Made by a program: the position numbers and the translations under genes. Source: Mobula hypostoma (taxonomy: Eukaryota). From it: a stretch of DNA of 64,000 nt. Below are positions 30,900-48,290 of this stretch, piece by piece. Below the pieces are notes generated by a model that ran no database searches, was not told where the DNA came from, and saw only the letters and a list, made by a program, of their open reading frames with translations. The number at the start of each line of letters is the position of its first letter. The first letter of the stretch is position 1. Where the stretch lies: positions 8,060,001 to 8,124,000 of the forward strand of contig NC_086097.1 of assembly GCF_963921235.1 (NCBI RefSeq). Direction: 5' to 3'.

Positions 30900-31092
30900 G
30901 GGCAGTAAGTTAACAAGTTAACATGCCAACAACTCACAAACACTAACTGTACAATATTGGAAGGTGGGAGGAAATCCATGCAGTCATTGGGACAATTACA
31001 AACTCCTTACAGGCAGTAGCGGGAATTGAATCCCGATCAGTGATTACTGGCGCTGTAATGGTGTTACACTAACCGCTACTCTACCGTGCTGC
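30900..31092 (-). mobile_element. HE1/V-SINE-like SINE fragment
   Basis: AAACTCCTTACAG..GGGAATTGAATCC..AACCGCTACTCTACCGTGCTGCC. Confidence 0.75.
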
Positions 31093-31199
31093 CAAACTGT
31101 AAAAGGGATTACTGTTATGACAATTATATCTTGACTCTGAGTAGTTGGCACAACTTCAGGATGTTAGAAAGTACTTGACGTACAAATGGATACTTTTCA

Positions 31200-44236: not shown

Positions 44237-44564
44237 GTAAGTTTAGTGCTAGCAATCAAAGATGAATTTCTCTCCCTTCATTACAGCTTCTTTTAGAATT
44301 AGCTGGCAACGCTAGTTTCTGAACTGGACCCCTTCTAATTCTTTCCACATCAGACTTGAATTCACCAAGAGAAAGATACTGCAGAAAAGCCTTAGCCAAT
44401 GGTCTTAGACTAATTTCTCATCATTTAAGCGGAGATCCAAATTTGAAGAGCAAAAATTAGCAGCACACTTTTTCATATAATCATTTTATTTTGAGATAGA
44501 GCATGGTACAGTCCCTTCTGGCCCAAGTAGCCACACTGCACAGCAACCTGCCCATTTAAACCCT

Positions 44565-44797
44565 AGCAACACACATCAAATTTGCTGGTGAATGCAGCAG
44601 GCCAGGCAGCATCTCTAGGAAGAGGCACAATCGACGTTTCAGGCCGAGACCCTTCGTCAGTTAGTCCTGATGAAGGGTCTCGGCCTGAAACGTCGACTGT
44701 ACCTCTTCCTAGAGATGCTGCCTGGCCTGCTGCGTTCACCAGCAACTTTGATGTGTGTTGCTTGAATTTCCAGCATCTGAAGAATTCCTCGTATTTA
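44565..44797. mobile_element. Young Penelope head-to-head palindrome: 96-bp arms, 5 mismatches, 6-bp spacer, about 15-bp TSD
   Basis: Arms 44565-44660 and 44667-44762; CATTTAAACCCTAGC at 44553 and 44798. Confidence 0.92.
44662..44699 (+). ncRNA. Minimal type I hammerhead ribozyme motif
   Basis: UAGUC-CUGAUGA-AGG gucucgg CCU-GAAA-CGUC^GACUG; predicted cleavage after 44694. Confidence 0.82.
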
Positions 44798-45195
44798 CAT
44801 TTAAACCCTAGCCTAATCTCAGGACAATTTACAATGATCAATTAACCGAATGAACAGTATGTCTTTGGACTGTGAGAGGGAATCAGAGCACCTGGAGGAA
44901 ATCTATGCGGTGACTGGGAGAACATGCAAGCTCCTTACAGACCGTGGGGGGAATTGAACCTGGGTCACTGGTACTGTAAAGCATTGTGCTAATCACTATG
45001 CTACGGTTCCTCCAGAATTTTACATATGTTGTTCTGGATTTCTCGCATCTGCAGATGGTATTGGAATTGAACTCTGAACTCCAGAGTGCCCCAAGCTCTA
45101 ATAGCCTCACGTTAACCGCTACACTAGCATGGTGACCCTTGCGTTAAAGTGATGACATAAGACACTCTTAAAATGCTAACTTTGATCCACAGCTG

Positions 45196-45738
45196 GGATG
45201 GTGGAGGTGGTTGCCCATCGTGTCCGACGATGACAGGAAACCTGCGCAGGAGAGTTTTTAAAATGGAAAATCCATTTCACTGGGGCTGTTCCACTCTCTC
45301 AACCTTGGAAGTCTGGGTCCAGTGATACAAACAAGTGTCACAAACTGAGGTTTTCTTTGTTAGCAGTTGACCATGACCTATTCTGTCCCTTCGCTCTCCG
45401 TGGAGCATCACATTACTACCTTCCTGGCTGTTAGATCTCACTGTAGATCTCATCCTCCCAGTCAGCTGGTGCTGACTTTGCATGCTAGAACAGGCATGTC
45501 CCTATCGCACTGGGGAATGAGGCTTTCCAGCTACTCTCACCTGGTTTAGCCTGCCTGTCGAAGTCGTGTACCAGGGTGTGGATGCGGTCGCATGTAAAGA
45601 GCTACTTGGAGCCACAGGTGAGAGCAGAGTGTCCAGTGGGAACCACAGGTGAATCAGCTACCTCAGAATGGACAGAAGAAGCCCCTTCACCAGAGTTGCT
45701 ACCCCTCCCTGGACATTCCATGTACACCAACACACCAC
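45196..45738 (-). mobile_element. Non-coding RTE-like element, family 2, with a candidate 5' HDV-like ribozyme (45533-45738)
   Basis: 10-bp P2 CUCUCACCUG/CAGGUGAGAG, L3 UCCAAG, P1' ACACCCU then GG, J4/2 GGCUAA. Confidence 0.6.
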
Positions 45739-46734
45739 CTAGGCAAATTCATTTATAGACTGCTTGATGCCAAATATTGTCTAATAATTATCCATTGGAG
45801 TATCTGGGGAAAATGTATTGTATTATATTAAATGTGGTAGATAATGCAAATTAGATGGTTTCATTTGCAAACCTAATCTCTGTTGTAATATGAAAGCAAG
45901 TAAAAGGAAAAATTCCTTGATCCAGCAGACAATGTGCACTGCACAAGCTGAGATGGTTGTTAGTATACAATAATTAACTCATTTATGGTTATACATAGTA
46001 ATATTATCTAGAATAATGAATGATGTGATCAAAATGGAAGAACACAATTCGGAAGTCAAGTGAAGTTAGGTTTATCGTCATTTAACTATATACATGTATA
46101 CCACCATAAGAGACAGCATTTCTCTGGACCAAGCTATAAAGCACAGTAGTACACATAACTCACATATAACACACAATAGCTTGGGAAAGTAAGAATTAAT
46201 TCTACAAATGAATTACGCATAGAAAAACAAAGTGAAGTGCATAATTTAAATATTGTAAGGCACAGAACAGGTTAACTGGTGACACTCTGAATGCGATGTG
46301 GCAGGGAATTCAGAAGCCTAATGGCCTAAGGGAAGAAACTGTTTCCCAACCTGACCATTCTTGAATTTATGGCGTCTCCTACCTGATCATAGAAAGTCAA
46401 AGGAAGGGGTTGCTGGATGAATGGGTGGGATCCTCGATAATACTAAGGGCCCTGCATATGCAGTGCTCCTGATAAATGTCCCCGATGGATGGTAGGGAGA
46501 CCCCTTTGAACCTCTCAGCTGTTCTCACAGTCCTTTGTATGGACTTCTGGTCTGATGTTTGGCTGCTCCCATACAAAATGGAGATGCAATTTGTCAGGAT
46601 GCTCTTAATGGTCGCAAACGAACTCTCTCAACATTCTCACCGCTCCCAAAAGAAATTGTAATAAAATTTCCAGTGCCCTGACACAAATTGCCACCTAACT
46701 GTCAGATACACATGGATTAATATAGAGACCAGAA

Positions 46735-48290
46735 GGCCATAAAAGATAGGAGCAGAATTAGGTCATTTGGTCCATTGAGAGTGTTCCGACATTCAGTCAT
46801 GGCTGATCCTTTTATCTCCTCCGCAGCCCCAGTCACCAGTCTTCTCCCAGATAACTTTTGATGCCATGTTCAATCAGAACCTATCAATCTCTGCCTTAAA
46901 TATACCCAATGACCTGGCCTGCACAGCTGCCTGTGGTAACAATTTCCATAAATTCACCATCTTCTGGCTAAAGAAATTTCTCCACATCTGTTTTATATGG
47001 ACAACCTCTATCCTGAGTCTGTGCCCTCTTGTCCTAGACTCCACCACCATGGGAAACATCCTTTCCACATCTACTCTGTCTAGGCCTTTCAACGTTCGAA
47101 AGTTTTCAATGAGATCACTCATCATTCTTCGAAATTCCAGTGAGTACAGACCCAGAGCCATCAAATGTTCCACACATGATAATCCTTTTATTCCCAGAAT
47201 CATCCTTGTGAACCTCCTCTGAACCCTCTCTAATGCTAGCACACCTTTTCTTAGACAAGGAGCCCAAAATTGTTCATAATACTAAAGGTAAGGTCTCACC
47301 AGTGCCTTATAAAGCCTCAACGTCACATCACTGCTCTTGTATTCTAGACCCCTTGAAAAGAATGCTAACATTGCATTTGCCTTCCTCGTCACCGACTCTA
47401 ACTGCAAGTTAACCTTTAGGGTGTTCTGCACAAGGACTCTCAAGTCCCTTTGCATCTTAGATTTTGGATTTTTTTCCTTTTTAGAAAATAATCTGCACAT
47501 TTATTTCTACTACTGAAGTGCATGACCATGCATTTTCCAACATTGTATTTCACTTGGCACTTTCTTGCTCATTCTCCTCATCTGTCTAAATCTTTCTGCA
47601 TCCTACCTGTGTCCTCTAATCTACCTGCCCCTCCACCACTCTTTGCATCATCTGCAAATTGGCAACAAAGCCATCTATTTCATCATCTGAATCATTGAGA
47701 TACAGCGCAAAAAGAAGCGTTCCCAACACTGACCCCTGTAGAACACCACTAGTCACTGGCAACCAACCAAAAAAAGGATCTTTTTATTCCCACTTGCTGC
47801 CTCCTTCCAATCAGCCAATGTTCTGACCATGCCAGTAACTTTCCTGTATCAATTTGGTAAGCAGCCTCATGTATAGCACCTTGACAAAGGCCTTCTGAAA
47901 GTCCAAACATACAACCACTGCATCCCCTTTATCTATCCTACTTGTAATCTCCTCAAAGAATTCCAGCAGGTTTGTCAGGCAAGATTTTCCCCTAAGGAAA
48001 TCATGCTGACTTTCTCCTGTCTTGTCCTGCATCACCAAGTTCTCCATACCCACATCCTTAACAACTGAATCCAACATCTTCCCAACCACTGAGGTCAGGC
48101 TAGCTGGTCTATAATTTCCTTTCTGCTGCCTTCCTCCTTACTTAAGGAGTGGAATGAGATTTGCAATTTTCCTGTCCTCTGGCACCATGCTAGAGTCCAA
48201 TGGTTTTTGAAATATCATTATTAATGCCTCCACAGTCTCTATCACAACCTCTTTCAGACCCTAGGGTGAGTTCATCTGGTTCGGGTGACT
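46735..48290 (-). mobile_element. CR1 LINE, decayed ORF2
   Basis: ORFs 47811..48089, 47282..47500, 46874..47242. Confidence 0.93.

What the first reader, a model, noticed from the sequence alone, without database searches (positions are those of the whole stretch)
45533..45738. Second, sequence-distinct family with an HDV-like fold and L3 insertion
Seen on the minus strand: P1 GUGGUGU (45738-45732) pairs at 6 of 7 positions with ACACCCU, starting with G-U. There is a long J1/2, a perfect 10-bp P2 CUCUCACCUG/CAGGUGAGAG, P3 GGC, L3 UCCAAGUA plus a ~20-nt insert, P1.1 CC/GG, and J4/2 GGCUAA as in antigenomic HDV (candidate catalytic C at 45549). P3' reads UCC (one mismatch) and P4 is weak, so this copy is probably decayed. 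Inference: the same architecture in two unrelated sequences suggests a real structural subclass.
Basis: partly seen in the sequence, partly recalled or inferred. Interest (0 to 1): 0.72.

Follow-up and report, generated by a model that had tools for sequence, protein, structure and literature searches.

The report
HDV-like fold heading a retroposon family
The flagged stretch is a worn copy of a 536-base jumping element present in thousands of copies, whose reconstructed start folds like a hepatitis-delta-type self-cutting RNA placed to trim the element's own 5' end, though no cutting has been tested.

Summary
The stretch is the 5' part of one decayed copy (window 45728-45205, minus strand) of a ~536-bp non-coding retroposon. 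The family has at least several thousand copies in this 3.48-Gb genome.

P3' becomes GCC, the 5' end reads GGGGTGT and pairs 7/7, the L3 insert forms a 5-bp hairpin, and P4 becomes CCGC/GCGG. Target-site duplications put the family's first nucleotide at G1 of P1.

A descriptor loose enough to accept this fold matches composition-matched random sequence about 6e-7 times per start position at this quality.

Several things count against. There is no covariation, no thermodynamic signal and no Rfam match. The inferred master has G-C rather than G-U at the cleavage site. L3 is 28 nt. Copies are about 12% diverged and nearly all broken. The "first family" was not found.

Verdict: a probable (0.65) extinct HDV-like 5'-processing ribozyme, with unproven activity.

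The parts
45205..45728 (-). One copy of the ~536-bp non-coding retroposon family. It runs 5' at 45728 to 3' at 45205.
   Evidence: nhmmer with a profile built from 38 of the first 40 copies aligns profile positions 2-536 to 45727-45206, E = 2.5e-164. This is the only copy in the window. BLAST to other copies gives 74-84% identity.
45732..45738 (-). It lies about 10 nt upstream of the profile-defined 5' end, in flank or in an extra G/T-rich 5' unit.
   Evidence: It pairs at 6 of 7 positions with 45579-45573. It lies outside the family alignment. No target-site duplication was found for this copy.
45722..45728 (-). Position homologous to the family's P1 5' strand. The consensus is GGGGTGT; here it has decayed to GGTGTAC.
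   Evidence: It pairs at 4 of 7 positions with ACACCCT in this copy.
45625..45721 (-). J1/2, a 97-nt closed hairpin domain (P1.2-like) between P1 and P2.
   Evidence: The window copy folds to -37.4 kcal/mol as one closed domain. The consensus folds to -45.4 kcal/mol, leaving 3 and 2 unpaired nt at its ends. Its helices are 86-92% paired across 56 copies.
45615..45624 (-). P2 5' strand, CTCTCACCTG.
   Evidence: 91.5% of cells are paired across 56 copies.
45611..45613 (-). P3 5' strand, GGC.
   Evidence: The consensus is GGC/GCC, with 89.6% of cells paired.
45603..45610 (-). L3 core, TCCAAGTA. It has U at position 1, CC for P1.1 and G at position 6.
45583..45602 (-). Insert in L3. In the consensus it is a 5-bp hairpin (GCTGT / ACAGC) with a 9-nt loop plus one nucleotide. 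In this copy 3 of 5 pairs survive.
   Evidence: Helix 11 is 89.1% paired across 56 copies.
45580..45582 (-). P3 3' strand. It reads TCC here (one mismatch) and GCC in the consensus.
45573..45579 (-). P1 3' strand. It reads ACACCCT here and ACACCCC in the consensus. The last base is the C of a CpG.
   Evidence: At that pair, 25 copies have G-C, 12 have G-U and 3 have A-U, out of 56. CpG decay is shown.
45571..45572 (-). P1.1 3' strand, GG. It pairs with the CC of L3.
   Evidence: 75.5% paired; one G is the G of a CpG.
45551..45566 (-). P4. The consensus is CCGC / GCGG with an 8-nt loop. In this copy 2 of 4 pairs survive.
45544..45549 (-). J4/2, CTAAAC, with the candidate catalytic C at 45549.
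45534..45543 (-). P2 3' strand, CAGGTGAGAG.
45205..45232 (-). 3' end of the element: the hairpin CATCGT-CGGAC-ACGATG followed by a GGCAACCACC-type tail. There is no poly-A.
   Evidence: The consensus 3' motif has 286 exact genomic matches and 0 in the reversed control.

Best explanation
The finding is the 5' part of a dead copy of a ~536-bp non-autonomous non-LTR retroposon. The element is SINE-sized. It has no tRNA, 5S or 7SL head and no poly-A. It ends in a 3' hairpin plus a short CCA-type tail.

The first ~195 nt of the family's inferred master sequence have the nested double-pseudoknot layout of an HDV-like self-cleaving ribozyme:
- P1 is 7 bp and begins at the element's first nucleotide.
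- J1/2 is a closed 90-odd-nt domain.
- P2 is 10-11 bp and P3 is GGC/GCC.
- L3 is UCCAAGUA followed by a hairpin insert.
- P1.1 is CC/GG and P4 is short.
- A C sits in GGCUAAAC just before the P2 3' strand.

Proposed mechanism (inferred, not shown):
1. The promoter-less element was transcribed as part of longer host transcripts.
2. The ribozyme cut just 5' of G1, freeing an RNA with the exact 5' end seen in genomic copies.
3. An unidentified LINE's reverse transcriptase recognised the 3' hairpin and tail and copied the RNA into new sites by target-primed reverse transcription.

The family is old (about 12% from its consensus) and almost all copies, including this one, now carry disabling mutations.
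For: Shown:
1. It is a repeat family. There were 4201 first-look candidates and the 40 scored places (one of them the window's own copy) were all significant. The 3' motif has 286 exact matches and the L3 motif 576, each with 0 in the reversed control. All 30+60 places sampled by the 3' motif, and all 12 sampled by the L3 motif, are this same element.
2. It spread by LINE-type insertion. Target-site duplications of 8-15 bp were found in 15 of 40 rows and 17 of 51 rows. Of 90 unbiased copies, 44 are 5'-truncated beyond position 9, and L065 has a 5' inversion.
3. The 5' end is G1 of P1. Of 90 unbiased copies, 29 start at profile position 1-2 and 46 at position 9 or lower. The duplication ends within 2 nt of G1 in 10 of 15 rows and 13 of 17 rows. 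The T that often precedes G1 is part of the duplication.
4. The consensus of 56 copies satisfies my descriptor with P1 7/7, P2 11, P3 3/3, P1.1 and C-N-A-A. Across copies, 86.5% of cells are paired, against 39-46% when partners are slid.
5. Chance is low. In 61 Mb of window-like random sequence there were 0 hits with P1 = 7 and P2 >= 10. In 50 Mb matched to the element's own composition there were 29, about 5.8e-7 per start position.
6. No promoter-type head was found: ARAGORN found none and Rfam found no small-RNA family.

From papers:
- The same logic is described for R2, R4, Dong, Baggins and L1Tc (passages of PMC3774820).
- Active R2 ribozymes have J1/2 of 216-498 nt, no P4 and a variable J4/2.
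- A closed J1/2 helix activates large HDV-like ribozymes (PMC4908430, abstract and passages).
Against: - No cleavage data exist.
- There is no covariation. Double changes (23 pairs) are no more frequent than in slid controls (21-27). In P4 the two CpGs decay independently, and the doubly mismatched class CA/CA is the largest in its row (13).
- There is no thermodynamic signal: z = +0.61 for the copy and -0.76 for the consensus.
- No HDV-type Rfam model matches the window copy or six better copies at E <= 10.
- L3 is 28 nt instead of the usual 7-8. I found no description of such an insert.
- The inferred master has G-C, not the usual G-U, at the cleavage-site pair.
- J4/2 is 6 nt and J1.1/4 is 4 nt.
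- A second GGGGTGT at nt 10-16 can pair with the same P1 3' strand.
- Only 2 of 44 near-full-length unbiased copies still pass the descriptor.
- No autonomous partner was found.
- The descriptor was written after seeing the candidate, although the null used the same loose descriptor.
Confidence: 0.65

Rival explanations
1. Chance resemblance. The element's G/C-rich 5' region happens to fit a permissive HDV-like descriptor, and the 5' end is set by something else.
For: - The descriptor is very loose (J1/2 up to 130 nt, L3 up to 50 nt), and loose hits are common: 3043 in 50 Mb of composition-matched sequence.
- There is no covariation, no energy signal and no Rfam match.
- Several features are atypical: the L3 insert, the G-C at the cleavage site and the long J4/2.
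- A tRNA-SINE head in the same window also gives a weak match that starts at a repeat boundary.
Against: - At the quality seen in the consensus, the rate is about 5.8e-7 per start position, and the hit starts at the TSD-defined first nucleotide.
- Features outside the descriptor also fit: G at L3 position 6, a paired insert, P4 and a closed J1/2.
- The mutated positions of the window copy revert to pairing in the consensus, as predicted beforehand.
Confidence: 0.17
2. A real, selected 5' RNA structure that does not cleave. It could be a pseudoknotted domain that protects the 5' end or is bound by the partner reverse transcriptase, with the 5' end made by transcription initiation or by a host nuclease.
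For: - The long closed J1/2 domain and P2 are stable nested helices that appear in the minimum-energy fold.
- The L3 insert and the G-C at position 1 might be incompatible with catalysis.
- Four of the 5'-truncated copies start at nt 160-162, just 3' of the core. This fits a stable block to reverse transcription, whatever its function.
Against: - No promoter-like head was detected.
- The specific catalytic-core letters (U-C-C...G in L3, P1.1, C in GGCUAA) are not needed for a merely structural role.
Confidence: 0.15
3. The ribozyme cuts at the second GGGGUGU (nt 10) rather than at nt 1, or at both sites.
For: - The consensus passes the descriptor equally well with P1 at nt 10-16.
- One TSD-defined copy starts at nt 10 (L052), and L061 starts there by alignment.
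- PMC3774820 describes duplicated P1 segments that shift R2 cleavage sites.
Against: - Of 90 copies, 29 start at nt 1-2, while only about 2 start at nt 10. The other copies with profile starts at 6-9 keep the TAT/TGT of nt 7-9, so they are short truncations.
- Nt 10-17 also form the base of the J1/2 domain.
Confidence: 0.03

Closest known systems
HDV-like ribozymes at the 5' ends of non-LTR retrotransposons: R2, R4, Dong, Baggins, L1Tc. R6, SART and RTE are recalled from Ruminski et al. 2011, which I did not read here.
   Same: - The ribozyme sits at the element's 5' end.
- P1 defines the element's first nucleotide.
- The element has no promoter of its own and is thought to be freed from co-transcripts.
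- J1/2 is long and variable, and P4 and J4/2 are variable (PMC3774820 passages).
   Different: - Here the carrier is a dispersed, non-coding 536-bp family with thousands of copies in a vertebrate-like genome, not an rDNA-specific or coding LINE.
- L3 carries a 20-nt hairpin insert.
- The inferred cleavage-site pair is G-C.
- No activity data exist.
Non-autonomous carriers of HDV-like ribozymes: NARTc of Trypanosoma cruzi and the R2 'SIDE' internal-deletion elements
   Same: Both are short non-coding elements that keep the 5' ribozyme and a 3' end used by a partner's reverse transcriptase (abstracts of PMC3383444 and PMC3414825, listing).
   Different: - Those are recognisable deletion derivatives of a known autonomous partner. 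Here no partner sharing either end was found in 102 sampled places.
- The copy number is far higher than for SIDEs.
Large HDV-like ribozymes with a J1/2 peripheral helix (drz-Agam-2 type)
   Same: A closed helical domain in J1/2 brings the ends of P1 and P2 together (PMC4908430). Here the 90-odd-nt domain leaves 3 and 2 unpaired nt at its ends.
   Different: - The sequences are unrelated.
- The Rfam models of that family do not match.
- The base of the domain here duplicates the P1 sequence.
Antigenomic HDV and CPEB3 ribozymes
   Same: The core layout is shared, and the J4/2 context GGCUAA is as in antigenomic HDV.
   Different: - They have no J1/2 domain and no L3 insert.
- They have G-U at the cleavage site.
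- They are single-copy or viral, not retroposon-borne.

Membership tests
HDV-like self-cleaving ribozyme | P1 of about 7 bp whose first nucleotide is the cleavage-site nucleotide, with its 3' strand directly after P3 | tested here: met
The consensus has GGGGTGT with ACACCCC, 7/7. 71.7% of cells are paired across 56 copies.
HDV-like self-cleaving ribozyme | G-U wobble at the cleavage-site pair (usual, not universal; recalled) | tested here: inconclusive
   Out of 56 copies, 25 have G-C, 12 have G-U, 3 have A-U and 16 are unpaired. The site is a CpG, so the master most likely had G-C. The window copy has G-U.
HDV-like self-cleaving ribozyme | P2 crossing P1 (first pseudoknot), at least 5 bp | tested here: met
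   10-11 bp in the consensus and 10-13 bp in the window copy. 91.5% of cells are paired.
HDV-like self-cleaving ribozyme | 3-bp P3 closing an L3 that starts U-C-C and holds the conserved G (reverse wobble with the U) | tested here: met
   The consensus has GGC ... GCC, and L3 starts UCCAAGUA with G at position 6. The conserved G is described in PMC3774820. P3' is mismatched in the window copy.
HDV-like self-cleaving ribozyme | Short L3 (7-8 nt) | tested here: not met
   L3 is 28 nt. A 5-bp hairpin with a 9-nt loop is inserted between L3 position 8 and P3'. Two literature searches found no such insert described.
HDV-like self-cleaving ribozyme | P1.1: two C of L3 pair with two G right after P1 (second pseudoknot) | tested here: met
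   CC/GG in both the consensus and the window copy. 75.5% of cells are paired, and one G is lost to CpG decay in many copies.
HDV-like self-cleaving ribozyme | Catalytic C at the start of J4/2, followed by A residues, just before the P2 3' strand | tested here: inconclusive
   The C is present in GGCUAAAC (45549 in the window). J4/2 is 6 nt rather than 4-5. Whether this C is catalytic cannot be told from sequence.
HDV-like self-cleaving ribozyme | Match to curated covariance models (Rfam HDV-type families) | tested here: not met
   There was no HDV-type hit at E <= 10 on the window region or on six better copies. These models cannot hold the pseudoknots or large inserts, so this is weak evidence.
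HDV-like self-cleaving ribozyme | Compensatory changes supporting the helices | tested here: inconclusive
   The copies are neutrally decaying products of one master. Double changes are not above slid controls, there is no compensation in P4, and there are no subfamilies beyond CpG sites.
HDV-like self-cleaving ribozyme | Site-specific self-cleavage giving a 5'-OH at G1 | not testable with these tools
   No raw-read RNA run was available. Contigs cannot show RNA ends.
Ribozyme-terminated non-LTR retroposon | Insertion by target-primed reverse transcription (target-site duplications, 5' truncation, 5' inversion) | tested here: met
Ribozyme-terminated non-LTR retroposon | First nucleotide of the element equals the first nucleotide of P1 | tested here: met
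   The target-site duplication ends within 2 nt of G1 in 10 of 15 rows and 13 of 17 rows. Of 90 unbiased copies, 29 start at profile position 1-2.
Ribozyme-terminated non-LTR retroposon | No promoter-bearing head of its own | tested here: met
   There is no tRNA-like gene and no 5S, 7SL, tRNA or snRNA family. A Pol II promoter cannot be excluded.
Ribozyme-terminated non-LTR retroposon | An autonomous partner sharing the 3' end (and often the ribozyme) | tested here: not met
   All 90 places sampled by the 3' motif and all 12 sampled by the L3 motif are the same 536-bp element. The CR1-like LINE next to it has a different 3' end.

The most novel reading that the evidence does not exclude
An HDV-like ribozyme variant that tolerates, or uses, a helical insert in L3 next to the active site, together with a closed J1/2 domain. 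In this reading it served as the 5'-processing module of a very abundant promoter-less SINE-sized retroposon in a vertebrate lineage. The module also occurs in contigs of runs filed under four different organism labels, so it may be old and widespread. If active, it would extend the accepted structural limits of the HDV fold. It would also show HDV-like ribozymes driving a high-copy short interspersed family in vertebrates, a role so far linked mainly to hammerheads (recalled).
Probability: 0.3. Interest if true: 0.7.

Novelty: new variant of a known kind. Interest (0 to 1): 0.55.

Why it matters
HDV-like ribozymes are known to trim the 5' ends of several LINE families. Vertebrate examples are few, and short non-coding carriers are rare.

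If the reconstructed master cleaves, this family would be a high-copy vertebrate retroposon whose 5' end is made by a ribozyme. Its 20-nt hairpin inside L3 would widen the descriptor used to search genomes for this fold. Current searches that fix L3 at 7-8 nt would miss it.

The family also gives a simple, testable construct of about 195 nt, with clear controls. If it does not cleave, it is a useful warning that a loose HDV descriptor can be met at a repeat's exact 5' end.

Tried and rejected
- **Rfam.** The window at gathering thresholds gave 0 matches. The region 44500-46800 at E <= 10 gave no HDV-type hit, and neither did six better copies.
- **Folding energies.** Not different from shuffles.
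- **Covariation.** Not above slid controls. The P4 CpG contingency shows independent decay. Subfamily search: polymorphic columns are almost all CpG-type, so there is nothing to compare.
- **Alternative cleavage at nt 10.** Rejected as a main site. About 2 copies start there, against 29 of 90 at nt 1-2.
- **Autonomous partner.** Not found by sampling the 3' motif (90 places) or the L3 motif (12 places). L012 and L021, which break at the same place, proved to be an interrupted copy and an internally deleted copy.
  - The strict scan of the window gave 0 hits, and a second relaxed scan printed nothing.
  - The relaxed scan gave four other weak loci. The only one with an L3 insert is a tRNA-SINE head.
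  - nhmmer found no second relative of this family in the window.
- **Earlier notes of this scan.** Nothing relevant.
- **RNA evidence.** No RNA holder was listed. Only contigs could be laid, and they cannot show RNA ends. The apparent higher depth over the ribozyme part, and contigs that match only about nt 1-238, cannot be ranked or interpreted from contigs. The 12-place sample in this genome gave no second family sharing the module.
- **Target-site duplication for the window copy.** None found.
- **Papers.** Two full-text searches found no description of an L3 hairpin insert, and nothing pairing HDV-like ribozymes with sharks beyond one passing mention. Searches added nothing specific. Figures and supplementary structures of PMC3774820 were not seen, and they may show L3 variants.

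Full report
**What is at the coordinates**

- GTGGTGT at 45738-45732
- a long spacer
- CTCTCACCTG at 45624-45615
- T, then GGC at 45613-45611
- TCCAAGTA at 45610-45603
- a 20-nt insert at 45602-45583
- TCC at 45582-45580
- ACACCCT at 45579-45573
- GG at 45572-45571
- a weak P4 at 45566-45551
- G, then CTAAAC at 45549-45544
- CAGGTGAGAG at 45543-45534

My descriptor scan recovers this parse only when one P3 mismatch is allowed. The strict version finds nothing in the window. The copy's folding energy is ordinary (z = +0.61). Rfam gives nothing at gathering thresholds for the whole window, and no HDV-type family at E <= 10 for 44500-46800. On its own the copy is not distinguishable from a chance match to a loose descriptor.

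**It is a repeat**

- The window lies in a 3.48-Gb, 200-contig genome.
- A 501-nt query around the finding gave 4201 first-look candidates. All 40 scored places were significant: one was the query's own copy, and the other 39 were 80-84% identical.
- Alignment of 39 fetched copies shows a unit of about 536 bp. In the window it runs from 45728 to 45205 on the minus strand.
- A 20-nt motif from the 3' end has 286 exact matches, and a 20-nt motif from L3 has 576. Each has 0 in reversed controls.
- Every place sampled through these motifs is the same element: 90 through the 3' motif and 12 through the L3 motif.
- Copies differ from the consensus by 11.7% at non-CpG sites (range 6.3-19.6%, 119 copies). 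Nearly all common polymorphisms are CpG decay. The family therefore came from essentially one master and is old.

**What kind of repeat**

- It has no poly-A. It ends in a hairpin (CATCGT-CGGAC-ACGATG) followed by GACAACCACCA, with a variable number of extra CCA-like units.
- Target-site duplications of 8-15 bp flank many copies: 15 of 40 rows and 17 of 51 rows.
- Of 90 unbiased copies, 46 reach profile position 9 or lower and 44 are 5'-truncated at scattered positions.
- L065 has a 5' inversion.
- These are the marks of LINE-mediated target-primed reverse transcription.
- ARAGORN finds no tRNA-like head. Rfam finds no 5S, 7SL, tRNA or snRNA family in the copies. I saw no long ORF by eye in the consensus lines printed.
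- I found no longer element sharing either end. The neighbouring CR1-like LINE remnant (RVT_1 match) has an unrelated 3' end.
- That the genome is from a cartilaginous fish is my recollection of what such CR1 and tRNA-SINE sequences look like. It was not tested.

The majority consensus of 56 copies (A1) begins GGGGTGT AT GGGGTGT CC. Further on it reads CTCTCACCTG T GGC TCCAAGTA GCTGT-TTGCATGTG-ACAGC G GCC ACACCCC GG TACA CCGC-TTCGACAG-GCGG G CTAAAC CAGGTGAGGG.

All four predictions are met:
- P3' is GCC.
- The 5' end is GGGGTGT and pairs 7/7.
- The L3 insert is a 5-bp hairpin.
- P4 is a 4-bp stem.

L3 also has U at position 1 and G at position 6. That is the pair that PMC3774820 describes as a conserved reverse wobble (passage). 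The 97 nt between P1 and P2 fold into one closed domain (-45.4 kcal/mol for the consensus) that leaves 3 and 2 unpaired nucleotides at its ends. This is the arrangement that PMC4908430 reports as activating large HDV-like ribozymes (abstract and passages).

Across the 56 copies, 86.5% of cells form standard pairs, against 39-46% when partners are slid by 1-3 columns. Because the structure was read from the consensus, this mainly restates that the consensus pairs.

**Where the element starts**

- Upstream of GGGGTGT the copies are unalignable.
- The target-site duplication ends within 2 nt of G1 in 10 of 15 rows and 13 of 17 rows.
- Clean cases include L002, L019, L022, L023, L120 and L125.
- The T that often precedes G1 is repeated at the 3' flank, so it belongs to the target.
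- Of 90 unbiased copies, 29 start at profile position 1-2.

For the window copy itself, the profile places position 2 at 45727. The 11 G/T-rich nucleotides upstream may be flank or an extra 5' unit. L095 has a clear extra GGGGTGTGT unit. No duplication was found for the window copy.

**Chance**

I scanned random sequence with the same loose descriptor:
- P1 at least 6 of 7 and starting with G
- J1/2 up to 130 nt
- P2 at least 7 contiguous pairs
- P3 3/3
- L3 starting TCC, 7-50 nt long
- GG after P1'
- C-N-A-A within 2 nt of the P2 3' strand

Results:
- In 61 Mb modelled on the window: 383 hits, 38 with a perfect P1, and 0 with a perfect P1 and P2 >= 10.
- In 50 Mb modelled on the element's own G+C-rich first 222 nt: 3043 hits, and 29 at that quality, or 5.8e-7 per start position.
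- The consensus has exactly two hits, at nt 1 and nt 10, both at that quality.

Even with thousands of repeat families in a genome, a hit of this quality at the exact first nucleotide of one is unlikely by chance. Features outside the descriptor also fit: G at L3 position 6, the paired insert, P4 and the closed J1/2.

**What speaks against a working ribozyme**

- There is no covariation. Pairs with changes on both sides number 23, against 21-27 in slid controls.
- In P4 the two facing CpGs decay independently, and the doubly mismatched class is the largest in its row. This is expected for dead copies, but it means the helices rest on one inferred sequence.
- The consensus fold is not unusually stable (z = -0.76).
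- L3 is 28 nt. I found no paper describing an insert there (searches; figures and supplements not seen).
- The cleavage-site pair is G-C in the inferred master: 25 G-C and 12 G-U out of 56, at a CpG.
- J4/2 has 6 nt and J1.1/4 has 4 nt.
- PMC3774820 reports wide tolerance in R2 ribozymes: J1/2 of 216-498 nt, P4 absent and J4/2 unconserved. It reports nothing about L3 length.
- Only 2 of 44 near-full-length unbiased copies still pass the descriptor, so present-day activity is unlikely.
- No raw-read RNA data could be had.

**Other species**

Contigs from four runs filed under four different coded organism labels were laid on L025, a copy with an almost intact fold whose G1 is at 401. Each run gave 73-358 contigs at 80-99% likeness. 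Cover began at 401-407, with next to none upstream. So the family, or at least its 5' part, is not private to this assembly. Contigs cannot show RNA ends or rank depth, so nothing more is claimed.

**The 'first family'**

I was not given that finding, and the scan's notes held nothing on it. The relaxed scan found four other weak loci in the window. The only one with an L3 insert is 31093-30886 on the minus strand. It also starts at a repeat boundary (5960 first-look candidates). However, it is the head of a tRNA-derived SINE, with a P1 made mostly of G-U pairs, a 6-bp P2 and a mismatched P3. I regard it as chance. The inference of a subclass from two families is therefore unsupported here.

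**Verdict**

The best reading is an extinct HDV-like 5'-processing ribozyme heading a high-copy non-autonomous retroposon (confidence 0.65). It is a new variant of a known kind because of the L3 hairpin, and it is unproven until a cleavage assay is done.

Noticed in passing
window 44565-44762: A nearly perfect inverted repeat of about 200 bp (91.9% between arms). It gives sub-threshold matches to long-hairpin miRNA models (mir-789: 54 bits against a gathering score of 100). It looks like a MITE-type palindrome rather than a miRNA gene.
   Followed up: no
window 30914-31097 (minus strand): Head of a tRNA-derived SINE (5960 first-look candidates in the genome). It gives a weak, probably chance, HDV-like parse with a 32-nt 'L3'.
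   Followed up: partly
window 46730-48137 (minus strand): Remnants of a CR1-like LINE just upstream of the finding. One fragment matches RVT_1 (E = 3.7e-07). Its 3' end is unrelated to that of the retroposon family.
   Followed up: partly
family positions 1-16 (window about 45728-45711); L095; L009; L017: The element starts with a tandem pair, GGGGTGT-AT-GGGGTGT-CC. The second unit forms the base of the J1/2 domain and could also pair with the P1 3' strand. L095 and the window carry a further G/T-rich unit upstream; the G-rich stretches upstream of G1 in L009 and L017 may be further examples or merely flank. This recalls the model of duplicated P1 segments that extend R2 5' ends (PMC3774820).
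   Followed up: partly
L063, L065, L067, L129 (family positions 160-162): Four of the 5'-truncated copies in the unbiased sample of 90 begin within 3 nt of each other, just 3' of P1' and P1.1. A compact core that stops reverse transcription would give this pattern. The excess is modest and was noticed after the fact.
   Followed up: no
L028/L029 and L032/L033 (contig C91): Two pairs of copies are identical, including their flanks, at places 0.5-1.9 Mb apart on one contig. These are segmental duplications, not separate insertions. One copy of each pair was dropped from the profile and from alignment A1.
   Followed up: no
L025:250-1000 with runs X1, X2, X7, X9: Contigs from runs filed under four different organism codes carry sequences 80-99% like the element, starting at its first nucleotide. 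The family therefore seems to be shared by several species.
   Followed up: partly
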